Notes: generated by a model not told the origin, from the sequence alone. Shown: positions 3,277-15,683, counted from the first letter of the stretch. The stretch is 36,970 bases of DNA from Candidatus Woesearchaeota archaeon (GCA_016935155.1 JAFGRQ010000017.1:1-36970); one strand, 5' to 3'. Numbers and translations are program-made.

Positions 3277-3361
3277 CGCCAGCGCCAGGATTTGAACCTG
3301 GAAGTCCTTGCGGACACTCGCTTTCGAGGCGAGCGCATTAACCAGATTTTGCTACGCTGGC
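3277..3361 (-). tRNA. tRNA-Ser(CGA)
   Basis: Reverse complement GCCAGCG-TA-GCAAAATCTGGTTAATGC-G-CTCGC-CT-CGA-AA-GCGAG-long variable arm-CCAGG-TTCAAAT-CCTGG-CGCTGGC-G; G73; CCA not encoded. Confidence 0.95.
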
Positions 3362-4036
3362 ATATTTTTCTAGCTTCCTTTGTTTTCTAGTGTGAGTGAA
3401 CCCTATCTCCTTTAAAAACCTTCTTCTGTCTTCTTTACGGGTTATGTGGAGCAAAAAATTAGTGTTCCACGTAGCTTTTTTCCTTTTGTATTCATATATT
3501 TTGCTTTGTATGTCGAATTCTTTTAACATGCTGCAAATTTGAATCAATCCAAATTTATTCACACTTTGTATAGTTATGGTTTTTTGTCCAACGTAGGCTT
3601 CACAGTCATAAAATGCACGAAGCCATTCTTTTCTTTCGGAAACCGATTTTAAATAGTTCAAGGGAACTCTCCATTCAAGACTATGAAATGAACCGTGTTT
3701 TAATAAATCTAGAACAATTGGTTTAGACGAAGCTCTGACTCGAAAATAGTTTTTTTCTTTTTTAATCTGTGGTTTTATTTCATATATTTTTTCAAATGCA
3801 AATAAAAAAGAATTTAACATTCTTTTGTTGTCTGGGAAGAAAGAAACATCATGGTGTTTGTGTGTTTTCCACGTTCTAGCTGAGACAAATCCATCTCCCA
3901 TCAAATATGCAAGTATTCTTGCTTTCAATCCGGGATATTTCGAACTATTTTTTTCTATTTTGTTTGTTTCATTTCGAAGAACTTTGCTCCACCTATTGAT
4001 TGCAATTTTTCTATTCCATTCAGATTTACTTAACAT
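3338..4036 (-). CDS. Free-standing LAGLIDADG (DOD/intein-type) homing endonuclease-like protein
   Basis: Two LAGLIDADG motifs, 'ILAYLMGDGFV' and 'WLRAFYDCEAYV', both with the acidic residue; C-terminal 'FLKEIGF.H..K..KL'; no Hint splicing motifs; last 24 nt lie inside tRNA-Ser(CGA). Confidence 0.88.
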   Translation of the reverse strand: MLSKSEWNRKIAINRWSKVLRNETNKIEKNSSKYPGLKARILAYLMGDGFVSARTWKTHKHHDVSFFPDNKRMLNSFLFAFEKIYEIKPQIKKEKNYFRVRASSKPIVLDLLKHGSFHSLEWRVPLNYLKSVSERKEWLRAFYDCEAYVGQKTITIQSVNKFGLIQICSMLKEFDIQSKIYEYKRKKATWNTNFLLHITRKEDRRRFLKEIGFTHTRKQRKLEKYASVAKSG

Positions 4037-4057
4037 GACTCAAGAAAGATTTCTGGG

Positions 4058-4088
4058 TTTAAATATCTCACGCGAGGTTGTCTTGTGG
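4058..4088 (-). promoter_or_regulatory. Putative TATA box plus conserved 13-bp motif CCACAAGACAACC upstream of LAGLIDADG gene 1
   Basis: Motif at 4076-4088 and TATTTAAA at 4058-4065; same motif and spacing recur at 15653-15683. Confidence 0.7.
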
Positions 4089-4154
4089 GAGAGGTGGCCC
4101 ATTGTCCCACGCTGGCCTATTGAATCGGAGCAGAACGTCAATATTAAAACCTTT

Positions 4155-4610
4155 TTATTCTATGTCATGTATTCGGAATGTAATATAGTAGTTCATTAAG
4201 AAATTCAAAACACCAACAACTGCACATGAAATAAAGTTTGCAAGGAAATAATGCATTTTCAGAACTTCAACTAGGAAAGCAAGAACACCTAAAACAGCGA
4301 TTCCGCTTAGTGTATTTATGATAAAAAACAAAGCAAATCCTTTTTTGTGTGATGTTTTTGTTCCCTTGAATCCCCATCGTCTGTTCAAAGTATAACCAAC
4401 AACGCTACCAATAACATATGCGGCACCTGCAGAAATCAAATACTGTATTTTGAATAATTCAACAAACAAAAGAAGTAAAACATAATCTGTTCCTGCAGGA
4501 AATACGCTCGTTATTGCGTATCTTATGTATCTGGTTAAAAGATTTGGAGCTCTTCCTCCTAGTGATGTTGCATGATTCAAAGCATTTTTTACTCTTCTAA
4601 TTCTTTTCAT
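4155..4610 (-). CDS. GtrA family membrane protein (putative lipid-linked sugar flippase)
   Basis: 'RYIRYAI...TDY..L...E', 'YTLNRRWGF', four hydrophobic helices, C-terminal 'LNFLMNYYITF'. Confidence 0.85.
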   Translation of the reverse strand: MKRIRRVKNALNHATSLGGRAPNLLTRYIRYAITSVFPAGTDYVLLLLFVELFKIQYLISAGAAYVIGSVVGYTLNRRWGFKGTKTSHKKGFALFFIINTLSGIAVLGVLAFLVEVLKMHYFLANFISCAVVGVLNFLMNYYITFRIHDIE

Positions 4611-4617
4611 AATAAAA

Positions 4618-4692
4618 TACCCCTGTTGGGATTTGAACCCAAGTTTCCGCCCTGAGAAGGCAGAGTGCTTGACCGGGCTACACTACAGGGGC
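4618..4692 (-). tRNA. tRNA-Glu(CTC)
   Basis: Reverse complement GCCCCTG-TA-GTGTAGCCCGGTCAAGCAC-T-CTGCC-TT-CTC-AG-GGCGG-AAAC-TTGGG-TTCAAAT-CCCAA-CAGGGGT-A; TATATAAA about 25-30 nt upstream. Confidence 0.93.
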
Positions 4693-4737
4693 ATAAACAA
4701 ACTTGTTTAGAAGCTATTTATATAGATATCGCCCAGT

Positions 4738-5208
4738 TTATCGCTGATACGTTTGTCTTATGCATTCTTCTACTTCAGAAACCAATCCTTTATTTTTTTC
4801 AGTTCCATAATAACCAATGCAGCACTTAGCAAGAGGTGCATTAAGATGAGCATCATGAGGCTCATTCAAGTACAGTTCAAATTCAAAATATTTTTCTTTA
4901 TTTTTTTTTGATGTGTGAATTGTCAGTGATGAAATTATTTTGTCTTTTGTCATGTTTTCCGTGCTTCCTTTGTATTCCGAGCCGTCAAAATACTTGACTG
5001 CAATATCAGATAAATCGAGGCACAATCCTTTTTGTGCAAGAACTTTTGCAAGAACATTTGGCATAGCTCTTCCATGAGACTCAATGAATCTTGTAACAAT
5101 TGTCGGAAAATTGTGTTTTGGTGTCGGTCTTCTTGTCGTATTTGTTTCAAGATAATGTATTTCTCTTCGTCTTCGTCGCAGAATTTCATTTAGAATTTGC
5201 CGTTTCAT
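4738..5208 (-). CDS. Hypothetical protein
   Basis: 156 aa ORF with a TATA box (ttatataaa, about 5231-5239) at leaderless spacing; no recognised motif. Confidence 0.65.
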   Translation of the reverse strand: MKRQILNEILRRRRREIHYLETNTTRRPTPKHNFPTIVTRFIESHGRAMPNVLAKVLAQKGLCLDLSDIAVKYFDGSEYKGSTENMTKDKIISSLTIHTSKKNKEKYFEFELYLNEPHDAHLNAPLAKCCIGYYGTEKNKGLVSEVEECIRQTYQR

Positions 5209-5314
5209 ATTTTTGTGCCTCGGTTAGTTATTATATAAACTCTCGTTTTCCCATTTGAGTAGCACAGGACACCTCCACCAAATGTTTATAAATGATTTAA
5301 GTGCCTAGTTTAAC

Positions 5315-6145
5315 ATGGACTCCCCCAAAGCAATCAAAAGAGTGCAGTCTGCTTCTTCAATCAATACATTCAAGCAATGTCCAAGAAAATATTTCTACCA
5401 ATACGTTCTCGCGCTGCCCATTGTAGAAAACATATATCAAATTAGGGGAAATATTGCGCACGATGCGCTTGAGCATTTTTTTCAAATCAACATAAATCAC
5501 ATCAATGAAAAAAATTTTGAAAAAGAGCTTAAAATAGCTATGCAGGAACTTCTTATTTTTCATTGGAGAAAGGAAAAAGAAAGACTTGATAAATTAAAAC
5601 TAGAGCCAGCTAAAATTAAATTTTATTTTGAAGAGACGCTTCACATGCTTATTGGATGGGTTGATTTGTTCTGCAAGAAAATAAAAACCACAAAAAAATC
5701 GTTCAAGGATGCATTTGAATTCTTGACTCCGATAGCTGAGCAATATTTTATTTCAAATAAATATGGTGTTCAAGGGTACATGGATGCTATCGAAATTCAA
5801 GAAGGCCACACAAGAATCATGGATTACAAAACTTCATCAAAGAATGAATTAACTGACGAATATCTGCTGCAGCTCGCAATTTATGTTTTATTGTACGAAG
5901 AAAAATACAAAAAATTTCCTGATGAAGTTGGATTGTATTTGCTCAAGCACGGAGAAAAATCAATCAAAGCAGACGAAAATTTGCTCAAGCTAGCGAAAAA
6001 GGAAATCCTTGCTGTGCATGAAAGAACGCAGAGCGAAGAAATTGAAGATTATCCTAAAAAAGAAGGTCCGTTGTGCAAATGGAGTTCCGGAAAGTGTGAT
6101 TTCTATGATATTTGTTTCGGGCAGAAAAAAGTCAAGGATTTTTAG
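5315..6145 (+). CDS. PD-(D/E)XK nuclease, RecB/AddB/solo Cas4-like, with probable 4Fe-4S cysteines
   Basis: 'SASSINTFKQCPRKY', 'G...H..LE', 'GYMDAI...IMDYKT', 'QLAIY', C-terminal 'CKW....CDFYDIC'. Confidence 0.88.
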   Translation: MDSPKAIKRVQSASSINTFKQCPRKYFYQYVLALPIVENIYQIRGNIAHDALEHFFQININHINEKNFEKELKIAMQELLIFHWRKEKERLDKLKLEPAKIKFYFEETLHMLIGWVDLFCKKIKTTKKSFKDAFEFLTPIAEQYFISNKYGVQGYMDAIEIQEGHTRIMDYKTSSKNELTDEYLLQLAIYVLLYEEKYKKFPDEVGLYLLKHGEKSIKADENLLKLAKKEILAVHERTQSEEIEDYPKKEGPLCKWSSGKCDFYDICFGQKKVKDF

Positions 6146-6470
6146 AAGTTTCTTTTTCTTGTTTTTCAAATTTTTCTATGATGTGAGGAAGACGATTCAG
6201 AGCATCTTTGTGAATACCCATTATTGCAATTTTTCCCTTGAGATTCAGTCCCGTTCCTCTGCAGCTGCAATCGTAGTATTCAGATTTCCCTTGGTTATTG
6301 AGATGATAAATTCCTCTGTGTTCCGGCTTGCAGGTTGTGCATGCTCCGCCATTAGAAATTTGATTCAAGTATGTCTGATAGACAAGGTTTTCATCAAGTT
6401 TTAAATCAAGACTTACTTTTTTGGGTAAATTAAATAATGCTCTTCCTATTTTGTCTGCCAAGGATATCAT
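6132..6470 (-). CDS. Hypothetical protein with CxxC/CxC cysteines
   Basis: 112 aa; 'ACTTCK' and 'DCSCRGTG'; TATA-like ttatttaa about 20-28 nt upstream. Confidence 0.55.
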   Translation of the reverse strand: MISLADKIGRALFNLPKKVSLDLKLDENLVYQTYLNQISNGGACTTCKPEHRGIYHLNNQGKSEYYDCSCRGTGLNLKGKIAIMGIHKDALNRLPHIIEKFEKQEKETSKNP

Positions 6471-6553
6471 GGAGTTCGTTGGAAATAACTTATTTAAGAA
6501 CTTATCGAAATTGTGAGTTCAAGGAGTCTTCCAAGTTTCGCAAAAACAAAAAA

Positions 6554-6674
6554 TGAGCCCGAGGGGATTTGAACCCCCGACCCCATGGTTACTTTCGGAA
6601 CCTTGTTTCGAAAGTTCGAAAACGAAGGTTTTCGTTAAGAGCCATGTGCGCTAACCAGACTGCGCTACGAGCCC
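6554..6674 (-). tRNA. tRNA-Lys(CTT) with a 46-nt intron at 37/38 (intron 6590-6635)
   Basis: GGGCTCG-TA-GCGCAGTCTGGTTAGCGC-A-CATGG-CT-CTT-A[intron]A-CCATG-GGGTC-GGGGG-TTCAAAT-CCCCT-CGGGCTC-A; removing the intron gives a 75-nt cloverleaf. Confidence 0.92.
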
Positions 6675-6731
6675 ATTAAACAGACTACGCAGTGCAGGCA
6701 TTTATATACTTTCTGGGTGGGTAACAAAAGC

Positions 6732-6766
6732 TTTATATACACATTATACTAGATATATTGTGTATA
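6732..6766 (+). promoter_or_regulatory. TATA box overlapped by a palindromic operator (TATACACA-N15-TGTGTATA)
   Basis: TTTATATA at 6732-6739; perfect 8-bp inverted repeat at 6736-6743/6759-6766 with further inner symmetry; ends 3 nt before the RHH gene. Confidence 0.7.
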
Positions 6767-6769
6767 CAA

Positions 6770-6910
6770 ATGAAGGAAAAAGAGACCACGCTCAGACTTA
6801 GAGAGTCAACTAAAAAGAAACTCAACGAAATAGAATTTGCTAAGAAAGGAAAATCCTATGATGATATTCTCAATGAATTGCTCGACAAGTACGGGAGGCT
6901 GGCAAAATGA
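6770..6910 (+). CDS. Small ribbon-helix-helix DNA-binding protein (VapB/antitoxin-like), 46 aa
   Basis: Not in the ORF track. MKEKETTLRLRESTKKKLNEIEFAKKGKSYDDILNELLDKYGRLAK; beta-strand 'TTLRL' plus 'SYDDIL.ELL' pattern; ATGA overlap with the next gene. Confidence 0.8.
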   Translation: MKEKETTLRLRESTKKKLNEIEFAKKGKSYDDILNELLDKYGRLAK

Positions 6911-9900
6911 AAACAAAAGAATTTTTGCCGCTCCTTTTTGTGTTTATTGCTGTAATTAGTGCATTTGCTGTTTCAACAATAACCTCTGTGACAATCAATA
7001 CGACGTATTTCACAAACCAGACAGTAGAAAACATTACTGCTTATTGGGTTGACGGGGATGTTGTCAATATTACGGATTGGAGAGTGAATGGAAATTCGAT
7101 TGCCTATGCGTTCTGGCCGTTTGATGGAAGCACAAACAACACGAGAGCGGCTGACTATAGTACTAGCGGAAGAAATGGAACTGTCATTGAAGGAGGAACG
7201 GTTGTTGTTTGGGATGCTGTTGGAGGATTTGACGGACACGGAGCATTCAATTTCTCGGGAGGCGCAGGATATATAATCCATGATTCAAACATAAAAATAA
7301 ATTATTCTTATGGTGGCGGAACCATGGAGAATATTTCTGTTTTGTTCTGGGTGAAATCTCATCTCAATTCCGGCCAGCTGGGAATTTTTCAGCTTGCAAA
7401 CATGCTTAACAGCGGAAATCCATGCATTTTAATTCAAAAAAACGCAGGAAATCTGAGCTATTATGTTTCTGCAGGCTACAGGAATACAACGACGGATTTG
7501 GTACTGAACGAGTGGACGCATGTAGCAGTCACATTCAGCACCCAATCTCAGACTTGGAAATTTTACAGGAACGGCCAGGTTTTGAATGAATATTCGGGGC
7601 CGGCTACACACTGCGATACGCCGGTAAATGATATTTATTTGGGAAACGGGTTTAACGGATTTTTTAACGGCTCCGTAGATGATTTTAGATTGTACAACAG
7701 GTCACTGAGTGCAGAGCAGATACTCAATATCTACAACAACCGCTCAGATTTTATAAGTCACAACGACACATCAAGGGGAGAAAATTGGACTGTGTGCGTA
7801 ACACCATACAATGGTACGGATGTTGGGACTGAAGTTTGCTCAAATCAAATAACAATCAAAGAAAATATTGCGCCGATTGCAGTGAACGTCACAATCAACA
7901 CGACGAATGCAAGAAACTTTACTTCGGAGGACATCACAGTTTACTGGAGTTCAAGCGATGATGACGATTATGAAGGAGCCGTGGTCAATATCACGGATTG
8001 GAGGATGAACGAAACATCAATCGCTGTTTTGAATATGCCTTTTGAAGCAGACGGAAATCAGAATGCAACAGACTATTCAACATATGGGAGCAACGGAACA
8101 AATCAATGGGAAGTGACTTGGCTTCCTACTTCGGGGCATGATGGAGGAGGGACGTACCTTTTTGATGGAGCAGACTATATTGACCATGCTAGTCCTGTTC
8201 TTCCTATTGGGGATGACCCTTATGCAATAACCGCATGGATAAATACGACTGATGTGTGTGCTTATAGGGGAATTGTTGGATGGGGAGGTTACGGAAATTC
8301 AAATCAGGTAAACGCATTTAGATTTGATTCTGATTCTGTACAGCCCGGAGAAGATTGCCATCTCCTTAACTATTGGTGGGACACAGACCTCAATGTCAAC
8401 ACATCCATCCCAATAAGGGATGGTCAATGGCACTTTGTTATTGCAATGTATGACCAAACGACGCGTTCGATATGGATTGATGGCGTGCAAATGGGCAATG
8501 ACACTCCGGCAGCAGACCACGCAGTGCCCGATACAAGCAACTTCAGGATAGGCTCGACAAACGGCGAAAATTTCAACGGAATGATTGATGATGTGAAAAT
8601 ATTCAACAGGTCGCTTTCACCCGAACAAATAGCTTATTTATATCAACACAGGGTAGATATAATTTCAAGTTCAGAAACGCAAACAGGAGATATCTGGACA
8701 GCATGCGTAACACCGAATGATGGGTTTAATGGAAGGACTGTTTGTTCAAACAATTTAACTGTTGTGGGAGATAATGCTCCTCCTTCATGGAATGAAACAC
8801 CAACAAATCAGGAGTTAGAATATGGAAGCGTGTTCAATTATCAGGTAAATGCAAGCGACTCGCCGCTCAATAACTATTTCATAAACGATACAACAAGCTT
8901 CAATATAACGTCAACGACAGGAATCATTAATAATGTTTCTCTTCTTTCTGCAAAAACTTACTGGCTGAACATTTCAGCAAATGATACTTACAATAATCAA
9001 ATTTCAGCAATAATAAATGTTACTGTAACAGATACCATAAGTCTGCTTTCAATATATCCTAACGCGACGGAGGAGCTGCAAAACATTACAACAGAAACTA
9101 GTTTGAACTTAACAAAGAACTATACGGGAACAACAAATTTCACATTTAATGTCACGGCAGATGACATAGGAACAACAGCATTAACTTTCACATGGTTTGT
9201 AAATCAGGTAGTCGAGTTTGTTGAATCTTTGACTTCGGGATGGACAAGCATGTTCAGTTATTTCTTTTCCGTAGGTAATTACAACGTATCAGTTGTCGTA
9301 AACAATTCTTTTACAGAATTAAACGAAACATTTTCGTGGAATTTGACAGTAAATGATGCAAACCTGAATGTAACTGAACTTGCATGGATAACAACAACGG
9401 GAGTTACTTCAAGCGATTTACATTATAATCAAATAATAAAAAACATAACAACAAAAGTAAATTCCACAGTTTCTGCAACGGTGCTGCTTAATGTCCTGTA
9501 TCCAGACGGGACAAATCTGCTGACGAATGCAGAGATGACGAACGTCGATGGAACGGCATTCTACTATGATTCGCAGTTTATTCTTGACAGAGTCGGAAAT
9601 TGGAATATAACAATAACTGCAAATGAAACATCAGCAACATTTTCCAAGAGCTCATTGCTTGATGTGACGAGATTCACAAATCCAACAACGGCTGATGGAT
9701 ATGAAGGATTCGACTCAGGAAAAATTCCTTCTGCAGCGGAGATAAACAATCTTACTGCGTATGGATTTAACTTAGTTGGACTACAAATCAATTATTCCAG
9801 ATTCGACACGGATTGGGAAGCGCTGAAGGCGGCAATAAATTACACATTTTCTGATGAAGACAGCAGTTCATTCATAAAAATTTATTTTGACAAAGGAAAT

Positions 9901-12900
9901 TATTCAAATTACACGGGAGAATGCAATAAGGTGAACGCAAACATGACTGATTTGAGAAGTTACCCTTATGTCGATGGAACTGCGTTTATTGTTGTAGATT
10001 TGAATTCAACTGGAACAGATAATAAATCTTTATTTGTAAATTCTGTATCGGCGTGCATCGCGTCGGCAGTAAATGACCAGTTCCCGATTTATTCTGCAGT
10101 TTCTAACATCAGTCCGGATACAAATTACGTTTCGAATTGGACCATGCACAAAGTGTCAGGAAATAATTTAGAATATGCAACAAGCAGGGAAAACACAATC
10201 TTAAGGTTATCGACATTATATACCAGAATATATAACGGAACAAGTGATGAGTTCAAGAACTGGGCATCAGACTATTATTCTGGCGTTATTGCTAATCTTA
10301 GGGATAAGCCATCTTCAACTCAGCCAACAGACACAATCATTGCAAGACTCGACAATGGAGATTTGATAATCTTTAATAATCAGTCGGGCACATCGCAGAT
10401 AGTTAACTTATCAATTGCTGCAGGAAACGATGCGTGGGATTATACAAACAAAGAACTATTCGAAAACCTTTCGGCAGCATCAGAGAGTGTAGCAGTAACA
10501 ACGCCGCCATATTCAGCATCTATTTTGTTTTTGAACAATTTCAGCAAATTCATCATGATTGACAATGCAACTTCCACATTATACAAAGAAGGCTCGACGA
10601 TTTTTGCTCATTTCAATTACACCCAAGATACGTCCGGCTCAGGAACATATTCCATAGTAGGAACGCATGACGCTCTCACCGAAGTATGGAACCCGAATTA
10701 CGTCTTAGAAAATTTGGAATTTCATACTTATGAACAGTTGATGTATACAAAAATAACCGACTTTAACCCGTACGAAGTAATTGTAGTATCGATTGCGTCC
10801 GTAAATACTCCAACTGTTGTAAATCAATCTCTAAGAGTTTCTGAATTCCCAGATATTCTCAATAGAACTTACGGATATGTTTCCGTTTCTGACTACGACA
10901 ATTTAAACAGCACCGGACAAAACGAAACAAACTGTTCTCTGACGAACGGATGGGAAGATGATAAGAAATCAGAAATAAACAACGTAATTGCGAACTATTC
11001 AATAAATTTGTTCCTTGACGGGTTCGATATAGGATATACTGTCAGCCCGTCATGTTTTGAGGACAGAATAAAACGATTGGCTGATTACGTGAGATTTGAA
11101 AAGAACAAAAAATCAATTTTCAATACTTACACCATTTACGAAATGGTTTCAAATTACGGAGACAAGGTTATGAGAGAGTCTTGTTTTTCCAGATGGGCAG
11201 GGACTGTTGATTCTCCGACGTATTCTTACGAAAACATGACTTTGATGGTTGAGAATGCCAACTTCCTTTCAACGACAAATAAACCAGTTATTTGCATGGC
11301 GTTTGGGGATGTCAATGATTATGATAAAATGGCATGGGACTTTGCAGCTTTTGCAGTCATATACGGAACAAAAACAGGAGGCGGGGATAACAACACGTTC
11401 AGATATGCTCAGCCTAACTTCCAATTGCAGAGGGAAATAAGAGTTCCTGATTTGGGCAACATGCTGCAGAACACATATGATTCCTCAACAGACCCTTCTG
11501 ACTGGACCAGAAGATACTCAAATGGAATAGTTCATGTAAACCCCTTGAGAAATGAAACGTACAGCAATGGAAAATACTATTGGTTTGACGACGGCAGCAC
11601 AATAAACAATCTGAGTATCACATCACAGCATCAGCAATATCACAGCGGAGTTTGTCATGAAGACTACGATTCAGTTCTTACAATCTTTATTTCGAACAAT
11701 GGTTCATGGGAAGAAACATCACAAACCATAGGAAGCTGCGAGGTTTGTGCAGAAGATCCTAACTGCGGAACGGGAGATACGCAGTGGGTTGCGGGATATG
11801 TAACAAAACAGATAAATTGGACTCCGAACGGGCATTATTGGCTGGCATTCAGTCCAAGCATAGCAACATCAACAGGAATAAATCTGTACAATAAAATAAA
11901 CACCACGAGCGGAATTCATTCGTACTATGGAGATTTTATGGTAGGAAGTCTTGGAGATCCCGAAGATGGCTCGTGGAATGAGTATGGAAGAATAGGCACG
12001 TCTGGAAACATTTTTACAACCAACTGGGACATAAATGTAGAGACTAATCAGACAACAAGCGCGAGTGTGGATACTTCTTTGACGACAATAAGCAGCACAA
12101 TAGTTTACTATAATCTGACGACTCACAATCAGCATAATTTGACAATCACTTCCTCAAAATCATACAATCTTCCAGTGTTGGCAGAATCAATTTTGATAAA
12201 CGAATCGTATATCAGAGGAATTTTCTTCAATGGAACAGAGCTTAATGTATCAGATGATATAAACTGCCTTGAAGCAAATCCTGAATTCAATTATTCGAGT
12301 GTGAATGGATATCAGCACGGGGCATGCAGAGTTAACTCAAGCGATGGTTATTACTACCGGGTTTTGGCTCCTCATTTATCTACAATGGTTTATAGTGTTG
12401 AGATGGAAGGAAAACCAATTATCGAGGGAATATATCCTAATGCGACTGGCGATATGCAAAACATAACTGAAGGGAATCAAATAAATATGACCTCAGAATA
12501 CATTGCGACCAATCACTCTTTCAATGTAACCGCTTCGACATATGACAACCATTCGCTGACATTCACATGGATTGTAAACCAAGTTGTAAAGCTGATTGAA
12601 ACGCTGATTTCAGGGGCGACAAGTATGTTCAGCCAGTTTTTTGATATGGGAAGCTACAACATAAGTGTAACTATAAATGCATCAGATGTTTCGCAAAACA
12701 AAACATTTTCGTGGAACGTAACGGTCAGTGATACTACCGCTCCGGCATGGAATGAAACGCCAACAAATAGAACTGTTGAGTTTGGTGATGCACTTTACGT
12801 CAGGTTTAATGCAAGTGATGTGCTGTTCAGCGACTATTCGATTAACGACACAGAAAATTTCATAATTGATTCGTCGGACGGAACGCTCACAAATTATACT

Positions 12901-14505
12901 GAATTGTCGTTCGGAACATATGTTCTTTCTGTAACGGTCAACGACACCTCAAATAATCAGAATACAACTATGATTTACATATTTGTTCAGGATACTGTTG
13001 CGCCTTACTTCGTTCAGATTCCGCAGAATGCAACCGCAGAATATGGTTATGCATTCGAGATGATGGTTAATGGCACAGACAATACGGCTATTGACAAATA
13101 TCATTTCAATGACAATATTAATTTCACAATGAATTCCACAGGATTTATTCAGAATTACACTCTTCTTTTTAAGGGAGAGTACATACTGAATGTTACAATA
13201 AACGATACTTCAAACAATCAAAATTCAACCATATTTGGTCTGATTGTGAATGACTCGCTAACGCCGGGGCTTGTTTTGCTTGACCCGTACAATGAAGCAG
13301 GAGACAATGACGGAAATGTTTCATTCACTTTCAATGTTTCAGACAAGTCAGAAATAATTAACTGCACATTTAATTTCAGCGGTTCATTCAATCAATCGGA
13401 TAATTTGATTACGAGGGACATTGTGCAGGATTTCATCGTCAACAATCTGGATGTCGGGGAATATAATTGGAGCATTACTTGCACCGATGCTTCAAATCAT
13501 ACTAATGTAAGCGGGACAAGATTCTTCAATGTAGTCAAAACAACAGAATTTTCGGGGGACACAACAAATCTCACTCAGGTCAATCTTTCGAATATTGCAA
13601 ATTTCACTCTTGAGGAAACGACATACGGAAAGATAACTTTCCTTGAAAATGTGAATCTGAGCGGGGCAATTAATGTGGACGATTTTGTAAATGTTTCATA
13701 CAACAGAACGGAGGTAAACTCGAGCGGTCTTCCAACTCTGAACACGTCGGCAAGGGTAACTCTTTATGGTCTTCCTTTTACCAACCCGAGACCTATGAAG
13801 GACGGAGAAGTGTGTTCAGACTGCACTGAAATTTCATATGCAGGAGGCATATTTGTCTTTGAAGTAACTTCCTTCAGCGTTTATTCTGCGGGAGAAACTC
13901 CTGTCACGTCAGGAGGTGGAGGAGGGGGCGGATCTGGAAGTGGTTCATACATAACATTGGTTGAATGCAGAACGGATGCTGAATGCGGAGTTCTCGGATA
14001 CTGTTATGAAAATGAGTGCGTACCGTATGAATGTGTCGCGAACGGCGATTGTATGCCGGGCCAAGTATGTTTGATGAACAAGTGTGTGGATTATGATGTA
14101 AAGTCAGAATCCACAAAACAAGAAGCGGTAGAAGAAGCACCCAAAGCAATAACAGCAAGTGCAACGAAAGAACCCGAGAAAAAGAAAGGGTTCAAAATGC
14201 CCGAGTTCAGACTGCCTAAATTGAGTCTGAGCCCAGCGATGAGAGATGCAATCGCGAAAACAACCACCGTTTTTGTTGCAATAATTTTGATTTTGACGAT
14301 TGTTTTGCAGATTAAAAAATCGCTGTCGATAAGCAGAGAAGGAAAATACTTGGATAAGCTTGTTGTCCAAAACAGAATCGCATACAGACTTGGCAACATG
14401 GAAGAGGCAGCAAAGACTTATGAAAAATTCAAGGAAGAACTCGAAAGGAGCCCGGAAGATGTCAAGCAAAAATTCAAAGATGTTGAACAAACGTTGAACA
14501 AATAA
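6907..14505 (+). CDS. Giant membrane-anchored surface glycoprotein (2 LamG/ConA-like domains, Ig/cadherin/PKD-like repeats, putative TIM-barrel glycoside-hydrolase-like region, Cys-rich repeats, C-terminal TM)
   Basis: Signal peptide; LamG motifs 'WTHVAVT...FNGSVDDFRLYNRSLS' and 'WHFV...FNGMIDDVKIFNRSLS'; repeated 'D..AP.WNETP.N' cadherin-like units; many NxS/T sequons; Gly/Ser linker; 'C..D.EC.....C....C' repeats; TM 'TVFVAIILILTIVL'. Confidence 0.85.
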   Translation: MKTKEFLPLLFVFIAVISAFAVSTITSVTINTTYFTNQTVENITAYWVDGDVVNITDWRVNGNSIAYAFWPFDGSTNNTRAADYSTSGRNGTVIEGGTVVVWDAVGGFDGHGAFNFSGGAGYIIHDSNIKINYSYGGGTMENISVLFWVKSHLNSGQLGIFQLANMLNSGNPCILIQKNAGNLSYYVSAGYRNTTTDLVLNEWTHVAVTFSTQSQTWKFYRNGQVLNEYSGPATHCDTPVNDIYLGNGFNGFFNGSVDDFRLYNRSLSAEQILNIYNNRSDFISHNDTSRGENWTVCVTPYNGTDVGTEVCSNQITIKENIAPIAVNVTINTTNARNFTSEDITVYWSSSDDDDYEGAVVNITDWRMNETSIAVLNMPFEADGNQNATDYSTYGSNGTNQWEVTWLPTSGHDGGGTYLFDGADYIDHASPVLPIGDDPYAITAWINTTDVCAYRGIVGWGGYGNSNQVNAFRFDSDSVQPGEDCHLLNYWWDTDLNVNTSIPIRDGQWHFVIAMYDQTTRSIWIDGVQMGNDTPAADHAVPDTSNFRIGSTNGENFNGMIDDVKIFNRSLSPEQIAYLYQHRVDIISSSETQTGDIWTACVTPNDGFNGRTVCSNNLTVVGDNAPPSWNETPTNQELEYGSVFNYQVNASDSPLNNYFINDTTSFNITSTTGIINNVSLLSAKTYWLNISANDTYNNQISAIINVTVTDTISLLSIYPNATEELQNITTETSLNLTKNYTGTTNFTFNVTADDIGTTALTFTWFVNQVVEFVESLTSGWTSMFSYFFSVGNYNVSVVVNNSFTELNETFSWNLTVNDANLNVTELAWITTTGVTSSDLHYNQIIKNITTKVNSTVSATVLLNVLYPDGTNLLTNAEMTNVDGTAFYYDSQFILDRVGNWNITITANETSATFSKSSLLDVTRFTNPTTADGYEGFDSGKIPSAAEINNLTAYGFNLVGLQINYSRFDTDWEALKAAINYTFSDEDSSSFIKIYFDKGNYSNYTGECNKVNANMTDLRSYPYVDGTAFIVVDLNSTGTDNKSLFVNSVSACIASAVNDQFPIYSAVSNISPDTNYVSNWTMHKVSGNNLEYATSRENTILRLSTLYTRIYNGTSDEFKNWASDYYSGVIANLRDKPSSTQPTDTIIARLDNGDLIIFNNQSGTSQIVNLSIAAGNDAWDYTNKELFENLSAASESVAVTTPPYSASILFLNNFSKFIMIDNATSTLYKEGSTIFAHFNYTQDTSGSGTYSIVGTHDALTEVWNPNYVLENLEFHTYEQLMYTKITDFNPYEVIVVSIASVNTPTVVNQSLRVSEFPDILNRTYGYVSVSDYDNLNSTGQNETNCSLTNGWEDDKKSEINNVIANYSINLFLDGFDIGYTVSPSCFEDRIKRLADYVRFEKNKKSIFNTYTIYEMVSNYGDKVMRESCFSRWAGTVDSPTYSYENMTLMVENANFLSTTNKPVICMAFGDVNDYDKMAWDFAAFAVIYGTKTGGGDNNTFRYAQPNFQLQREIRVPDLGNMLQNTYDSSTDPSDWTRRYSNGIVHVNPLRNETYSNGKYYWFDDGSTINNLSITSQHQQYHSGVCHEDYDSVLTIFISNNGSWEETSQTIGSCEVCAEDPNCGTGDTQWVAGYVTKQINWTPNGHYWLAFSPSIATSTGINLYNKINTTSGIHSYYGDFMVGSLGDPEDGSWNEYGRIGTSGNIFTTNWDINVETNQTTSASVDTSLTTISSTIVYYNLTTHNQHNLTITSSKSYNLPVLAESILINESYIRGIFFNGTELNVSDDINCLEANPEFNYSSVNGYQHGACRVNSSDGYYYRVLAPHLSTMVYSVEMEGKPIIEGIYPNATGDMQNITEGNQINMTSEYIATNHSFNVTASTYDNHSLTFTWIVNQVVKLIETLISGATSMFSQFFDMGSYNISVTINASDVSQNKTFSWNVTVSDTTAPAWNETPTNRTVEFGDALYVRFNASDVLFSDYSINDTENFIIDSSDGTLTNYTELSFGTYVLSVTVNDTSNNQNTTMIYIFVQDTVAPYFVQIPQNATAEYGYAFEMMVNGTDNTAIDKYHFNDNINFTMNSTGFIQNYTLLFKGEYILNVTINDTSNNQNSTIFGLIVNDSLTPGLVLLDPYNEAGDNDGNVSFTFNVSDKSEIINCTFNFSGSFNQSDNLITRDIVQDFIVNNLDVGEYNWSITCTDASNHTNVSGTRFFNVVKTTEFSGDTTNLTQVNLSNIANFTLEETTYGKITFLENVNLSGAINVDDFVNVSYNRTEVNSSGLPTLNTSARVTLYGLPFTNPRPMKDGEVCSDCTEISYAGGIFVFEVTSFSVYSAGETPVTSGGGGGGGSGSGSYITLVECRTDAECGVLGYCYENECVPYECVANGDCMPGQVCLMNKCVDYDVKSESTKQEAVEEAPKAITASATKEPEKKKGFKMPEFRLPKLSLSPAMRDAIAKTTTVFVAIILILTIVLQIKKSLSISREGKYLDKLVVQNRIAYRLGNMEEAAKTYEKFKEELERSPEDVKQKFKDVEQTLNK

Positions 14506-14537
14506 AACCTTTCGTGTTTTTTTGATTCCTTATATAT

Positions 14538-14777
14538 CTACCGTCCAAACACTCTTGCCAGCAAACCTTTTTTAGGAAACAGTATTTCATCTATTTGTCT
14601 GTTTATTTCTTCCCTAGATATTAGCTCGGGTGCATTCATTGAATATTGCATTGGTTTTCCGTTTTTTCTTTCAAAATATGTTCTCAATTCACAAATACTC
14701 ATGCATCTAATTTGATTTATGCTTAACCCTGTTTTTTGTTCAACTGCTTTTTCGTATGTTTGTTTTGCTGTTGTCAT
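14538..14777 (-). CDS. Hypothetical protein (79 aa)
   Basis: The track ORF 14538..14924 reads through the tRNA; the plausible start is ATG 14777 (MTTAKQTYEKAVEQKTG), 6 nt after the tRNA 3' end. Confidence 0.55.
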   Translation of the reverse strand: MTTAKQTYEKAVEQKTGLSINQIRCMSICELRTYFERKNGKPMQYSMNAPELISREEINRQIDEILFPKKGLLARVFGR

Positions 14778-14783
14778 TGTGAG

Positions 14784-14922
14784 CGCCGTGGCCCGGATTT
14801 GAACCGGGATATCCTTGCGGAAACAAGCTCTATGGTACTTTCCTTGGAAAGTGATTCCAGGCTTACGCTCATGGCTTTTTAAAGGCCACAATTTGCGCAG
14901 TACCAGGTTGTGCCACCACGGC
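14784..14922 (-). tRNA. tRNA-Ser(GGA) with two introns: 30 nt at 29/30 (14863-14892) and 25 nt at 37/38 (14830-14854)
   Basis: GCCGTGG-TG-GCACAACCTGGTACTGC-G-CAA[intron1]GC-CT-GGA-A[intron2]A-GCTTG-variable arm TTTCCGCAAGGATAT-CCCGG-TTCAAAT-CCGGG-CCACGGC-G; the 84-nt mature form folds; both introns have BHB-like junctions. Confidence 0.88.
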
Positions 14923-14950
14923 ATACTTTATTTTTCTCAAATTGGGGTTT

Positions 14951-15631
14951 TTATAAACCTAGTGCTTTTTTAAGGGCCTTTTCCTTCTTTTCGTGAGAAA
15001 AACCAACTTTCTGAGAAAATGTTTCTAGTGATTTTCTGTCAGTTATTCTTATTATTGTGACCTTCGAATAATTCTCTTTTTTGGGTTGATAGAAGTAAAT
15101 TTTATTTTCTATTTCCATGGATTTGAGCAGAGAGGATATTTGTTTCATTCCTTCTTCATTAACTGTTTGGATTTTTATTGCTCTTTTCTCAACATGTGCT
15201 TCAGCAGAGAAAAAGCCTCTGATCCATGCTTCTTTGGCTCCCGAAACAAAAAATAAAGATAATGGAGGAGACCATTTCTTTATTCCGAAATTTGCTGTGT
15301 TTTTTAAATCTTGAACGATTGTTTTAGAACAGATTCTTGCATCGATGAAGTTTTTCTCTTGTTTTATCGAAGGATCTTTTCCATAAATAAAATTCATGGC
15401 CTTGGTGTAGTCTTTTAGCATATTTTTGTCATCCGCAAAAAAGTTAATCTGAGAATGAATGTAGCCTTTGTTCATGACTTCACGTACGCTACCGTCTCCT
15501 GCAATAAATCCACAAAGAAGTGCTTTTTGAATAATTGCATTTCTGTTATTCTTTATTCTTTTTCTTTCTTCTTTATGTATTTTCTTCCATCTATTTTGTG
15601 CTACTTTTTTGTTTCTATCTGAAATACTCAC
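14951..15631 (-). CDS. Free-standing LAGLIDADG (DOD/intein-type) homing endonuclease-like protein, paralog of 3338..4036
   Basis: Motifs 'LCGFIAGDGSV' and 'WIRGFFSAEAHV'; 'IQTVNEEG', 'FSQKVGFSHEKK'; N-terminus 'S..NKKVA.NRW.K' shared with the first copy; GTG start at leaderless spacing from ATTAAAAA. Confidence 0.88.
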   Translation of the reverse strand: MSISDRNKKVAQNRWKKIHKEERKRIKNNRNAIIQKALLCGFIAGDGSVREVMNKGYIHSQINFFADDKNMLKDYTKAMNFIYGKDPSIKQEKNFIDARICSKTIVQDLKNTANFGIKKWSPPLSLFFVSGAKEAWIRGFFSAEAHVEKRAIKIQTVNEEGMKQISSLLKSMEIENKIYFYQPKKENYSKVTIIRITDRKSLETFSQKVGFSHEKKEKALKKALGL

Positions 15632-15652
15632 GAGGTTAGAAAAATACCGATG

Positions 15653-15683
15653 TTTTTAATGTTTTTGTGCGGTTGTCTTGTGG
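15653..15683 (-). promoter_or_regulatory. Putative TATA box plus conserved 13-bp motif CCACAAGACAACC upstream of LAGLIDADG gene 2
   Basis: Motif at 15671-15683 and ATTAAAAA at 15653-15660; same offsets from the start codon as in copy 1. Confidence 0.7.

What the first reader, a model, noticed from the sequence alone, without database searches (positions are those of the whole stretch)
3277..15683. Repeated cassette: free-standing LAGLIDADG endonuclease gene directly upstream of a tRNA-Ser gene (two independent copies)
Seen: two homologous ~230-aa double-motif LAGLIDADG genes (3338-4036, 14951-15631) about 11 kb apart. Each is co-oriented with and abuts the 5' end of a serine tRNA (Ser-CGA, overlapping by 24 nt; Ser-GGA, 28-nt gap). 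The other two tRNAs (Glu, Lys) have no such gene. Both proteins share an unusual basic N-terminal segment (S..N(R/K)K(I/V)A.NRW.K) ahead of the nuclease and keep the acidic catalytic residues. Established: LAGLIDADG enzymes normally sit inside introns or inteins, or are domesticated as WhiA. Here they are in neither. Inference: a family of intronless homing elements that insert at the promoter/5' boundary of tRNA genes, or a domesticated tRNA-linked DNA/RNA-binding system. This is the best candidate for an undescribed system in the window.
Basis: partly seen in the sequence, partly recalled or inferred. Interest (0 to 1): 0.88.

Follow-up and report, generated by a model that had tools for sequence, protein, structure and literature searches.

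The report
Homing endonuclease cassettes in tRNA-Ser genes
Two intact LAGLIDADG nuclease genes each sit directly in front of a serine tRNA gene, and comparison with about 125 related loci suggests a selfish DNA cassette that breaks into tRNA-Ser genes, rebuilds the tRNA and may spread a small tRNA intron with it.

Summary
ORF1 (3338-4036, -) overlaps tRNA-Ser(CGA) by 24 nt. ORF2 (14951-15631, -) ends 28 nt before a two-intron tRNA-Ser(GGA) (14784-14922). The proteins are 36% identical double-motif LAGLIDADG enzymes with invariant catalytic Asp/Glu. Their closest solved relatives are PI-PfuI and I-DmoI.

The linkage is a family property. Of 125 DPANN loci, 114 have a tRNA-Ser immediately downstream, 10 run off the contig, and in one the tRNA is cut by the contig end. 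The family is patchy: full-length in 6 of 151 genomes of the order. A same-genus genome has an empty site.

Upstream of the ORF, 25 loci (including ORF1) carry a displaced tRNA 5' fragment on the same strand. It ends at about position 29/30. Exactly there, most linked tRNA-Ser(GGA) genes carry a bulge-helix-bulge mini-intron with a covarying central helix.

The uninterrupted site occurs in 68 of 144 nuclease-free genomes but in only 2 of 75 linked tRNAs. Decayed ORFs and intron-only alleles also exist.

Best reading (0.66): a free-standing homing cassette inserted inside tRNA-Ser genes, with an intron-protected or divergent replacement tRNA. Cleavage has not been tested.

The parts
3214..3227 (-). 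Displaced 3' end of an older tRNA-Ser (T-stem 3' strand, acceptor 3' strand and discriminator), 49 nt after the intact tRNA-Ser(CGA).
   Evidence: Local alignment to the 3' end of the intact tRNA scores 18; 1.5% of 200 shuffles reach that score (L002). Its acceptor strand pairs with the upstream 5' fragment. Sequence read.
3277..3361 (-). tRNA-Ser(CGA), intron-less. Its first 24 nt also encode the last 7 residues and the stop of ORF1.
   Evidence: ARAGORN; Rfam RF00005, 59.7 bits; sequence.
3338..4036 (-). ORF1, 232-aa double-motif LAGLIDADG protein. It belongs to the mixed CGA/TGA/GGA clade of the family.
   Evidence: Pfam PF14528 E 4.7e-14; carries all invariant residues; placed in a CGA subclade (97* SH-aLRT) of clade II.
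4076..4116 (-). Displaced 5' fragment of a tRNA-Ser (acceptor 5' strand and D arm, 4098-4116), followed by the conserved motif CCACAAGACAACC (4076-4088). It ends about 40 nt before the ORF1 start.
   Evidence: nhmmer hit from model position 1. Local alignment to the intact tRNA: 4.5% of shuffles score as high. The same GGGACAATGG-type fragment occurs in L054, L055 and L115. Motif statistics.
14784..14922 (-). tRNA-Ser(GGA), 139 nt, with two introns (mature length 84 nt).
   Evidence: Sequence; ARAGORN with introns finds it but miscalls it His; homologous to the sister-genome allele L032:1658-1757; pattern hit at G000:C33:14855-14904.
14863..14892 (-). 30-nt bulge-helix-bulge mini-intron at tRNA position 29/30: GCGC-AA|A-[hairpin]-GCGT-AA|G.
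   Evidence: Absent from the sister genome allele. Joining at the two bulges gives exactly that allele. The central helix pairs 4/4 in 35 of 37 homologous inserts, with compensatory GCGC/GCGT and GCAC/GTGT forms.
14830..14854 (-). 25-nt intron at the canonical 37/38 position.
   Evidence: Read from the sequence. The sister allele has a 13-nt intron at the same place.
14951..14957 (-). TTTATAA: the last Leu codon and the stop of ORF2, doubling as the TATA box about 29-35 nt upstream of the tRNA 5' end.
   Evidence: The stop lies inside TTTATAA in 40 of 42 non-redundant loci with a gap of 20 nt or more. 41 of those 42 have a TATA-like box at -36..-24.
14951..15631 (-). ORF2, 226-aa double-motif LAGLIDADG protein. 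It belongs to the all-GGA clade.
   Evidence: Pfam PF14528 E 1.7e-16; 22 homologs at 44-58% identity, nearly all 224-232 aa; AlphaFold pLDDT 94; Foldseek top hits PI-PfuI, TliVMA intein endonuclease and I-DmoI; clade I.
15665..15683 (-). Upstream element CCACAAGACAACC-GCACAA, about 35-55 nt before the ORF2 start. It is probably a strongly decayed remnant of the tRNA D arm up to position 29, or an operator.
   Evidence: The 13-nt core is identical upstream of ORF1. The motif class CCACWRGWCR occurs in 13 of 89 upstream regions versus 1 of 713 control windows, in 11 of the 13 at -52..-70 from the start codon. As a tRNA remnant it is weak on its own: the L001 alignment is matched by 49% of shuffles.

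Best explanation
Both genes are free-standing LAGLIDADG homing endonuclease genes of one DPANN-wide family that specialises on tRNA-Ser(UCN) genes.

Inferred mechanism. The enzyme cuts an uninterrupted tRNA-Ser gene in a stretch of about 20 bp running from the D-loop to the anticodon loop. The consensus there is GGTAYTGCGCAA|GCCTGGAA, centred on position 29/30. Break repair then copies a cassette from a filled allele. The cassette consists of its own promoter, the nuclease gene, a TATA box built into the stop codon, and either a new 5' part of the tRNA or a complete tRNA.

The old 5' part of the tRNA is left upstream as debris, and so sometimes is the old 3' end. This debris also serves as a homology arm. 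The tRNA behind the nuclease gene is the cell's working copy. It escapes cleavage in one of two ways: a small bulge-helix-bulge intron (or a D-loop intron) splits the site, or the sequence there has diverged.

Shown by sequence comparison: the architecture, the strict tRNA-Ser linkage, the patchiness, the empty site, the decay products, the intron association and the depletion of the uninterrupted site.

Inferred only: nuclease activity, the exact cleavage site, and repair-mediated copying.
For: 1. Enzyme.
- Both proteins have two LAGLIDADG motifs, with D46 and E144 invariant in 22 of 22 sequences. These align to the GDG and AE of PI-PfuI.
- The model is confident (pLDDT 94). Its best fold matches are PI-PfuI, the TliVMA intein endonuclease and I-DmoI; WhiA appears only at rank 37.

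2. Fixed target.
- 114 of 125 loci have a tRNA-Ser directly after the ORF. Ten lack sequence and one is cut inside the tRNA.
- Anticodons by pattern: GGA 94, CGA 10, TGA 8, undetermined 2.
- The commonest gaps are 25 nt (25 loci) and -15 nt (15 loci).

3. Patchy distribution and an empty site.
- Full-length members occur in 6 of 151 genomes of the order, with one truncated copy in a seventh.
- The same-genus genome G150 (98% complete) has S10, a 94-aa ORF and tRNA-Ser(GGA) with no nuclease gene and no 29/30 intron.

4. Insertion inside a tRNA gene.
- A tRNA 5' fragment starting at acceptor position 1 lies within 200 nt upstream of the ORF on the same strand in 25 loci. None lies on the opposite strand.
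- A GTAYTGC-R element, followed by 3 variable nt and then TAAT-AGAA, sits at a fixed -50..-63 from the start codon in about 37 of the 94 non-redundant loci.
- Some loci also keep a matching 3' end after the intact tRNA: L055, L067/L148, L076, L065, L044 and window ORF1.

5. Intron at the same point.
- The 29/30 insert forms a bulge-helix-bulge. The central helix pairs 4/4 in 35 of 37 at the expected register, against 4 or fewer of 37 at shifted registers. GCGC/GCGT occurs 26 times and the compensatory GCAC/GTGT 8 times.
- The intron allele is present in 5 of 7 nuclease-positive or remnant genomes versus 8 of 144 others (Fisher p = 4e-5).

6. Site depletion.
- The uninterrupted site is found in 68 of 144 nuclease-free genomes, in 0 of 7 nuclease-positive or remnant genomes, and in 2 of 75 non-redundant linked tRNAs.

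7. Decay stages.
- The G026 copy keeps only residues 124-226, with 2 in-frame stops. L076 has lost the middle of the ORF.
- G061 keeps only the last codons and the TATA box in front of an intron-bearing tRNA.

8. Genomic context.
- ORF2 lies in a housekeeping context, just after the EF-1alpha and S10 genes.
Against: - No cleavage, expression or population-level presence/absence data exist. Only assembled contigs were available, and they showed nothing useful.
- 16 of 64 linked tRNA-Ser(GGA) genes have no insert before the anticodon.
- 2 of 75 linked tRNAs (L057, L096) carry the consensus uninterrupted site next to an apparently intact ORF. Either the proposed site is not exactly the target, or those enzymes differ or are inactive.
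- The protein is unusually uniform for a selfish nuclease: nearly constant length of 226 aa and 44-58% identity.
- The homology arms would be short (30 nt or less).
- No viral vector was found.
- The upstream remnant of ORF2 itself is not significant as a tRNA match; 49% of shuffles score as high.
- The site pattern was defined after seeing the G150 and G000 alleles, and related genomes are not independent. The Fisher p-values are therefore indicative only.
- tRNA ends and anticodons come from my own heuristics. Several tRNA starts were mis-set (rows with long negative gaps).
Confidence: 0.66

Rival explanations
1. A homing element. The free-standing nuclease gene inserts in the intergenic space at the 5'/promoter boundary of tRNA-Ser genes and cuts there or nearby. 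The tRNA fragments and the introns would then be unrelated by-products of general tRNA-gene turbulence in these archaea.
For: - The ORF always abuts the tRNA 5' end.
- The stop codon and TATA box are fused.
- Many loci show no recognisable upstream fragment. The 5'-fragment motifs are found in 35 of 89 upstream regions.
- 16 of 64 linked GGA tRNAs have no 5' insert.
Against: - Upstream fragments are strand-specific (25 loci on the same strand, 0 on the opposite) and sit at a fixed distance from the start codon.
- Their end coincides with the 29/30 intron site.
- The intron allele and the depletion of the uninterrupted site track the nuclease gene.
Confidence: 0.14
2. A domesticated LAGLIDADG protein with a cellular role tied to tRNA-Ser. 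Candidate roles are a transcription regulator of the downstream tRNA, in the manner of WhiA, or a helper for splicing the unusual introns.
For: - Strong sequence and length conservation, and an invariant extra N-terminal helix (N7, A11, R14, W15).
- Constant co-orientation with the tRNA, which shares its promoter region with the ORF end.
- A conserved upstream motif that could be an operator.
- WhiA appears among the fold matches, at rank 37.
Against: - Full-length copies are found in only 6 of 151 genomes of the order and are missing from a 98%-complete congener.
- The catalytic Asp and Glu are invariant, unlike in WhiA, and there is no HTH domain.
- Pseudogenised copies exist beside intact tRNAs.
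- 8 genomes carry the 29/30 intron without the protein, and many linked tRNAs have no intron, so the protein is not needed for splicing.
- Flanking tRNA debris is typical of insertion events.
Confidence: 0.12
3. The ORF is a passenger at the edge of a larger integrase-mediated element of the pNOB8 type that integrates into the 5' part of tRNA genes. This follows the model proposed for tRNA-Thr in Caldiarchaeum.
For: The layout is the same: a 5' tRNA fragment, an insertion with a gene next to and co-oriented with the reconstituted tRNA, and an extra intron in that tRNA (Sugahara et al. 2012, PMC3293823; abstract and Discussion read).
Against: - Only about 40-110 nt separate the fragment from the ORF start, so the whole insertion is the nuclease gene.
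- No integrase domain was found in the window ORFs scanned: 14 ORFs between 1189 and 19063, of which 7 had no Pfam family and the giant 6907-14505 ORF was not scanned.
- The same minimal unit recurs in 125 loci.
- ORF2 lies directly after the EF-1alpha and S10 genes.
- No member was found on viral contigs.
Confidence: 0.04

Closest known systems
Archaeal monomeric LAGLIDADG homing endonucleases (I-DmoI of a 23S rRNA intron; the endonuclease domain of the PI-PfuI intein)
   Same: Two-motif single-chain fold with an Asp in motif 1 and a Glu in motif 2. These are the best sequence matches (1dq3, E 8.6e-13; I-DmoI, E 8e-5) and the best fold matches.
   Different: The genes here are not inside an intron or intein; they have their own promoter and start codon. 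They carry an extra conserved N-terminal helix. The presumed target is a tRNA gene. Identity to the solved proteins is only about 20%.
Collaborative homing: free-standing F-CphI beside the intron-containing psbA gene of cyanophage S-PM2
   Same: A free-standing nuclease gene lies next to a gene whose ORF-less intron sits where the intron-less allele would be cut. The intron protects the host allele and can travel with the nuclease gene (passages of PMC6083498 read).
   Different: F-CphI belongs to the Endo VII nuclease family, the intron is a group I intron, and the host is a phage. Here the nuclease is LAGLIDADG, the intron is a protein-spliced bulge-helix-bulge intron in a cellular archaeal tRNA gene, and the cassette also duplicates the 5' part of the target gene. 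Cleavage is untested here.
tRNA-Thr(GGU) locus of Caldiarchaeum subterraneum (Sugahara et al. 2012, PMC3293823)
   Same: A 5' tRNA fragment lies upstream, an inserted element carries a gene adjacent to and co-oriented with the reconstituted tRNA, and that tRNA has an extra non-canonical intron (24/25 there). The authors proposed that the intron was gained through the mobile element.
   Different: That case is a single locus with a 1.8-kb insert and a predicted recombinase, explained by att-site recombination. Here the insert is about 0.8 kb and holds only a LAGLIDADG gene. It is seen in about 125 loci, the intron is at 29/30, and the target is tRNA-Ser only.
LAGLIDADG genes inside archaeal rRNA introns (bulge-helix-bulge introns of Thermoproteales; group I introns of DPANN rRNA genes)
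   Same: The same nuclease superfamily is associated with archaeal introns, including in Woesearchaeota and Pacearchaeota (passages of PMC6125680 read).
   Different: Those ORFs lie within the intron of an rRNA gene. Here the ORF lies outside the small intron and upstream of a tRNA. No group I intron model matches the window or 8 related loci.
SegB, a free-standing GIY-YIG homing endonuclease of phage T4
   Same: A free-standing nuclease gene associated with tRNA genes. That SegB lies in the T4 tRNA gene cluster is recalled, not checked here. Only the abstract of PMC13096335 was seen, in a search listing.
   Different: Different nuclease family and a phage host. There is no target-gene fragment duplication and no intron-based immunity.

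Membership tests
LAGLIDADG homing endonucleases (single-chain, two-motif) | Two LAGLIDADG motifs, each heading an alpha-beta-beta-alpha-beta-beta-alpha domain | tested here: met
   Pfam PF14528 for both ORFs. The model has helices 30-46 and 132-144, each followed by beta hairpins. Foldseek probability is 1.00 to PI-PfuI and I-DmoI.
LAGLIDADG homing endonucleases (single-chain, two-motif) | A conserved acidic residue at the end of each motif (metal binding) | tested here: met
   D46 and E144 are invariant in 22 of 22 sequences, including both window proteins. They align to GDG and AE of PI-PfuI. That these are the catalytic residues of PI-PfuI and I-DmoI is recalled knowledge.
LAGLIDADG homing endonucleases (single-chain, two-motif) | Site-specific double-strand cleavage of a 14-40 bp target | not testable with these tools
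   A target is only inferred (GGTAYTGCGCAA|GCCTGGAA).
LAGLIDADG homing endonucleases (single-chain, two-motif) | Encoded within a self-splicing intron or an intein | tested here: not met
   Each ORF has its own start and stop. No group I or II intron hit occurs in the window or in L001-L008. Family members are 207-232 aa without intein flanks. This feature is usual for the family but not obligatory.
LAGLIDADG homing endonucleases (single-chain, two-motif) | Sporadic occurrence at one fixed genomic site, with empty sites in relatives | tested here: met
   Full-length copies in 6 of 151 genomes. tRNA-Ser follows the ORF in 114 of 125 loci. G150 has an empty site.
Collaborative homing (free-standing nuclease plus ORF-less intron) | An ORF-less intron in the neighbouring gene at the nuclease's cleavage site, with intron-less alleles in nuclease-free relatives | tested here: inconclusive
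   The intron allele occurs in 5 of 7 nuclease-positive or remnant genomes versus 8 of 144 others. The uninterrupted allele occurs in 68 of 144 versus 0 of 7. However, the cleavage site is unknown, and 16 of 64 linked GGA tRNAs have no 5' insert.
Collaborative homing (free-standing nuclease plus ORF-less intron) | The intron blocks cleavage of the host allele | not testable with these tools
   Needs a cleavage assay.
Archaeal bulge-helix-bulge introns | Two 3-nt bulges on opposite strands separated by a 4-bp helix, with splice sites in the bulges | tested here: met
   The central helix pairs 4/4 in 35 of 37 inserts at the expected register and in 4 or fewer of 37 at shifted registers. A compensatory change GCGC/GCGT to GCAC/GTGT is seen. 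An outer helix was not found by eye, so this is a relaxed form.
Archaeal bulge-helix-bulge introns | Removal restores a functional tRNA; a splicing endonuclease is present | tested here: met
   Joining at the bulges gives ...CTGCGCAA|GCCTGGAA..., identical to the intron-less G150 allele. The EndA catalytic domain PF01974 is encoded in the genome (106 bits). Splicing itself was not observed.
Integrase-type elements integrated in tRNA genes (pNOB8 or SSV type) | A tyrosine recombinase gene within the element | tested here: not met
   The only ORF between the 5' fragment and the tRNA is the LAGLIDADG gene. No integrase family was found in the 14 window ORFs scanned; 7 of these had no Pfam family, and the giant 6907-14505 ORF was not scanned.
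Integrase-type elements integrated in tRNA genes (pNOB8 or SSV type) | A direct repeat of part of the tRNA at the far border of the insertion | tested here: met
   5' fragments in 25 loci on the same strand. In L099 the outer and inner copies match at 26 of 27 positions.
WhiA-type domesticated LAGLIDADG regulators | Loss of the catalytic acidic residues and a C-terminal helix-turn-helix domain | tested here: not met
   The acidic residues are invariant. No WhiA or HTH Pfam hit was found. WhiA is only rank 37 by fold.

The most novel reading that the evidence does not exclude
This is the first concrete route for the gain of non-canonical tRNA introns in Archaea. A free-standing LAGLIDADG nuclease and a 20-50 nt bulge-helix-bulge intron at position 29/30 of tRNA-Ser would spread together by collaborative homing.

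The nuclease cuts intron-less alleles. Repair then installs either the intron alone, or the intron together with the nuclease gene and a duplicated 5' exon.

In a second mode the cassette carries a complete, cleavage-resistant tRNA-Ser and destroys the resident one. The cell then depends on the element's tRNA, which amounts to a tRNA-gene drive.

The displaced 5' fragments would also be a ready source of the split and fragmented tRNA genes seen in Archaea.
Probability: 0.4. Interest if true: 0.88.

Novelty: new variant of a known kind. Interest (0 to 1): 0.78.

Why it matters
How archaeal tRNA genes acquire introns at odd positions, and why tRNA genes become fragmented, is still open. [quoted passage not shown] The idea that introns protect tRNA genes from mobile elements has been argued mainly for integrases (Discussion of PMC3293823).

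This family gives that question a testable system. It offers a small nuclease, a predicted 20-bp target in a universally conserved tRNA, natural filled, empty, intron-only and decayed alleles, and two ways of protecting the linked tRNA. If the nuclease is active, it would also be a new compact LAGLIDADG scaffold with a defined natural target.

There is a practical point as well. These multi-intron tRNA-Ser genes are missed or mis-typed by standard tRNA finders. DPANN genomes may therefore be scored as lacking tRNA-Ser(GGA) when they do not.

Tried and rejected
- Group I or II intron host: rejected. Rfam found only tRNAs in the window at gathering score and in L001-L008 at E up to 0.1.

- A giant ORF-bearing tRNA intron (5' exon upstream, 3' exon downstream, with no inner 5' exon): not seen. 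In every locus with enough sequence the downstream tRNA has its own acceptor 5' strand. L042 has a perfect upstream 5' exon but its contig ends inside the ORF, so it remains open.

- Splicing-helper role: disfavoured.

- Viral carriers: none among IMG/VR contigs. 22 pattern matches were found and none was confirmed.

- Expression and population polymorphism: no RNA holder was listed. Only one DNA run holds the stretch, and it may be the source sample. Only assembled contigs were available. The joints over 14811-14903 carry other letters and short sides (20-22 nt), so they come from tRNA-Ser genes of other organisms in the sample. This is no evidence either way.

- Remnant search upstream of the 8 intron-bearing but nuclease-free tRNAs: only G061 gave a recognisable C-terminal remnant, and the profile E-value was a weak 0.28. 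The call rests on its position and on the KK..LKK.L.L-stop pattern.

- The second upstream motif (CCACWRGWCR) could not be assigned with confidence. It sits where the GGTAYTGCG remnant sits in other loci and can be aligned to the D-loop with indels. Its conservation across clades may instead mean an operator.

- BHB geometry was checked only for the central helix and bulges. I found no outer helix by eye.

- Literature: five searches found no description of a LAGLIDADG gene linked to archaeal tRNA-Ser genes. Subscription journals and supplementary files were not visible and could hold one.

Full report
**1. The observation**

The window is contig C33 of a 771-kb, 59-contig, roughly 90%-complete genome with 37% G+C. 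Records that hold relatives are titled Woesearchaeota, Pacearchaeota, Nanoarchaeota and Micrarchaeota.

ORF1 (3338-4036, -, 232 aa) and ORF2 (14951-15631, -, 226 aa, GTG start) both hit Pfam LAGLIDADG_3. They are 36% identical over 214 residues. They are the only two copies in the genome.

tRNA-Ser(CGA) lies at 3277-3361. ORF1 runs 24 nt into it and stops in its D-loop.

Default ARAGORN and Rfam at gathering score miss the second tRNA. ARAGORN with introns finds a tRNA at 14783-14922 but calls it His. Read by eye, it is a class-II tRNA with acceptor GCCGTGG/CCACGGC, a long variable arm and anticodon loop CUGGAA. It has two inserts, 30 nt at 14863-14892 and 25 nt at 14830-14854. The gap to the ORF2 stop is 28 nt.

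**2. The protein**

A word-index search found 22 proteins. Nearly all are 224-232 aa, and they are 44-58% identical to ORF2. In the 22-row alignment, N7, A11, R14 and W15 in the N-terminal segment are invariant. So are G45-D46-G47 in motif 1 and E144 in motif 2.

An exhaustive profile search found 92 clusters (50% identity) at E up to 1e-30 and 593 at E up to 1e-10. The profile's best solved relatives are the endonuclease part of the PI-PfuI intein (E 8.6e-13) and I-DmoI (E 8e-5).

The AlphaFold model is confident (pLDDT 94, pTM 0.89). It shows a long N-terminal helix (residues 3-24) ahead of two alpha/beta LAGLIDADG domains. Foldseek ranks PI-PfuI, the TliVMA intein endonuclease and I-DmoI first. 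WhiA appears only at rank 37.

On sequence and fold grounds, this is therefore a nuclease-competent, single-chain LAGLIDADG enzyme with a family-specific extra helix.

**3. The tRNA-Ser link is a property of the family**

I collected 125 loci:
- 8 from whole-genome searches;
- 37 of the 39 from genome contigs, leaving out two that duplicate earlier loci;
- 80 from metagenome contigs.

A tRNA with a paired 7-bp acceptor stem starts right after the ORF in 114 of them. Ten have under 110 nt of downstream sequence. In the last one (L084) the tRNA is cut by the contig end.

By pattern the anticodons are GGA (94), CGA (10) and TGA (8); two are undetermined. All are serine UCN isoacceptors. The commonest spacings are +25 nt (25 loci) and -15 nt (15 loci). 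Some starts in rows with long negative gaps are artefacts of my heuristic.

In 40 of 42 non-redundant loci with a gap of at least 20 nt, the stop codon lies inside TTTATAA. In 41 of the 42 a TATA-like box lies 24-36 nt before the tRNA start. The conserved C-terminus (...L-G-L-stop) therefore doubles as the tRNA promoter.

A tree of 94 non-redundant ORFs has two deep clades (99% SH-aLRT). One is all GGA: 59 rows are GGA and 4 have no tRNA sequence. It holds ORF2. The other is mixed GGA/CGA/TGA and holds ORF1 inside a CGA subclade. The two window copies are therefore old paralogs, not a recent duplication.

**4. Patchiness and the empty site**

In an even sample of 151 genomes of the same order, full-length members occur in six: G000, G025, G027, G007, G106 and G141. 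A truncated copy is present in G026. The other, weaker hits are different LAGLIDADG proteins, many of them inside long ORFs.

G150 belongs to the same genus and is 98% complete. It has none. There the order is EF-1alpha, S10, a 94-aa ORF, then tRNA-Ser(GGA).

In the window, ORF2 lies in the same housekeeping neighbourhood: EF-1alpha at 16516-17826 and S10 at 16148-16456. No integrase was found among the window ORFs scanned.

**5. The cassette sits inside a former tRNA gene**

Upstream of the ORF, on the same strand, many loci carry the 5' part of a tRNA-Ser. A profile of the first 28 nt of the linked tRNAs finds hits that begin at acceptor position 1 in 25 loci. They end 38-130 nt before the start codon, mostly 42-68 nt. 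No such hit lies on the opposite strand in the same 200-nt zone. Window ORF1 is one of the 25 (4098-4116).

In many more loci only the D-arm end survives. A GTAYTGC-R element, then 3 variable nt (still CAA in three loci), then TAAT-AGAA, lies at a fixed -50 to -63 from the start codon in about 37 of the 94 non-redundant loci.

In the best-kept cases the similarity to the linked tRNA stops exactly after ...GCGCAA or ...GCACAA. That is position 29 (L042, L071, L072).

Outer and inner copies can be nearly identical: L099 matches at 26 of 27 positions. They can also differ in the acceptor stem (L131, L134) or throughout (L054-L056, L067).

Several loci also keep a 3' end that pairs with the outer acceptor strand, downstream of the intact tRNA. 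These are L055 (variable arm to 3' end), L067/L148, L076, L065, L044 and window ORF1 (3214-3227). In L055 the outer tRNA has no anticodon arm, so it is dead and the inner tRNA is the working copy.

**6. A bulge-helix-bulge intron at the same point**

The G150 allele reads ...GGTACTGCGCAAGCCTGGAA... without interruption. The window allele has 30 extra nt after ...GCGCAA.

Across homologous inserts the layout is constant: GCGC, a 3-nt bulge, a hairpin, GCGT, a 3-nt bulge. In 35 of 37 non-redundant cases the two 4-mers pair perfectly at this register. At shifted registers 4 or fewer of 37 do. GCGC/GCGT (26 cases) is replaced by GCAC/GTGT (8 cases), which is a compensatory change.

Cutting within the bulges, as in canonical archaeal introns (established geometry), joins ...GCGCAA to GCC.... 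This reproduces the G150 sequence. The genome encodes the EndA catalytic domain.

Among 64 non-redundant linked tRNA-Ser(GGA) genes:
- 48 have at least 8 extra nt before the anticodon. Of these, 37 are at 29/30 and 11 are in the D-loop or elsewhere.
- 16 have none, and those tRNAs differ in sequence across the same stretch.

**7. Association tests**

In the 151-genome sample the uninterrupted pattern GGTANTGCRCNNNNCTGGAA is present in 68 genomes. None of the seven genomes with a full or truncated family member has it (Fisher p = 0.017).

The 29/30-intron pattern is present in 13 genomes. Five of these are among the seven (G000, G025, G007, G106, G026). The other eight are among the remaining 144 (p = 4e-5).

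Only 2 of 75 non-redundant linked tRNAs carry the uninterrupted pattern.

These p-values are indicative only. The pattern was chosen after seeing the alleles, and genomes share ancestry. The positive genomes do, however, belong to different families of the order.

**8. Decay stages**

G026 keeps only residues 124-226 of the ORF, with two in-frame stops. L076 has lost the middle of the ORF. Both still have the intron-bearing tRNA behind them.

Of the eight intron-bearing, nuclease-free genomes, G061 still has the last codons (KK..LKK.L.L-stop) and the TATA box in front of the tRNA.

Together with the empty, uninterrupted alleles, this matches the stages of a homing cycle: susceptible, invaded, degenerating, and lost with immunity retained.

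**9. Mechanism proposed**

The following steps are inferred.
- The enzyme recognises the conserved D-loop-to-anticodon-loop stretch of tRNA-Ser genes and cuts near 29/30.
- Repair uses a filled allele as template. Its upstream 5' fragment pairs with the left end of the break, and its tRNA body pairs with the right end.
- This copies the promoter, the ORF, the TATA/stop and a new 5' exon (or a whole tRNA) into the break.
- If the left end instead pairs with the inner 5' exon, only the mini-intron is copied. That would explain intron-only alleles.
- The linked tRNA is protected by the intron or by divergence.
- Recombination between the outer fragment and the inner 5' exon would delete the ORF.

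This combines free-standing homing and collaborative homing as described for F-CphI and psbA (passages of PMC6083498). Its 5'-fragment layout is like the Caldiarchaeum tRNA-Thr locus, which was ascribed to an integrase element (PMC3293823, abstract and Discussion).

**10. What argues against it**

- There are no biochemical, expression or population data.
- Two linked tRNAs carry the consensus site.
- A quarter of the linked GGA tRNAs have no insert.
- The protein is unusually uniform for a selfish nuclease.
- The homology arms would be short.
- The upstream element of ORF2 is a motif-level match only.
- A conserved motif, CCACWRGWCR, occurs in 13 of 89 upstream regions against 1 of 713 controls. 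Its 13-nt core is identical before both window ORFs. It may be a decayed D-arm remnant or a binding site; I could not decide which.

**11. Novelty**

Five full-text searches found no description of LAGLIDADG genes tied to archaeal tRNA-Ser genes. The known DPANN LAGLIDADG genes are in rRNA group I introns (PMC6125680, passages). Supplementary files and subscription journals were not visible.

I file this as a new variant of a known kind. It is a free-standing LAGLIDADG homing element with three new features: an archaeal tRNA gene as target, duplication of the target's 5' part, and a protein-spliced intron as the likely immunity device.

Noticed in passing
window 14783-14922 and 6553-6675: Standard tRNA finders fail on these genes. 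Default ARAGORN and Rfam at gathering score miss the two-intron tRNA-Ser(GGA). ARAGORN with introns calls it tRNA-His(GTG) with a 61-nt intron. tRNA-Lys(CTT) has an intron of 46-48 nt. Genome-wide, only 31 tRNAs were found in 59 contigs, many with introns.
   Followed up: partly
L004/L043, L065, L158 (G144): Some relatives carry a further intron inside the T-loop of tRNA-Ser (after GGTTCAAA), up to about 130 nt long in L065. The 3' debris after the window's tRNA-Ser(CGA) (3214-3232) resembles the 3' end of such a T-loop intron plus exon.
   Followed up: partly
window 6907-14505 (+): A 2532-aa ORF lies between the two cassettes. It has an N-terminal signal-like segment, many N-x-S/T sites, internally repeated modules, a Cys-rich region near the C-terminus and a C-terminal membrane anchor. 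It is probably a giant surface protein. G+C is slightly higher there (0.41-0.43 versus about 0.37).
   Followed up: no
window 5315-6145 (+): A 276-aa PD-(D/E)XK nuclease (Pfam PDDEXK_1, E 6.7e-26, with weaker Dna2 and Cas4 hits) and a C-terminal Cys cluster. It stands alone between tRNA-Glu and tRNA-Lys.
   Followed up: no
window 14538-14924 (-): The listed 128-aa ORF starts inside the tRNA-Ser(GGA) gene, so its first part is almost certainly not coding. A shorter ORF beginning after the tRNA (MTTAKQ...) may be real.
   Followed up: no
protein P0023: The best hit of the exhaustive profile search is a 454-aa protein with two matched stretches, about twice the family length. It may be a tandem or fused pair of family members. 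It was not examined.
   Followed up: no
L040/L080/L081 (about 330 nt after the ORF), L006:3653-3674, L007:723-745: Several loci have a second tRNA-Ser, or a 5' fragment of one, close to the cassette. In L040 this is a tRNA-Ser(CGA) with an intron. tRNA-Ser genes seem to cluster or to be duplicated around these elements.
   Followed up: no
G000:C27:28475-28735 (L165): The only tRNA-splicing endonuclease match lies in an open frame of 181 aa, the size of a single-unit enzyme. Yet the genome's tRNAs carry introns at non-canonical positions, which are usually linked to broader-specificity enzyme forms.
   Followed up: no
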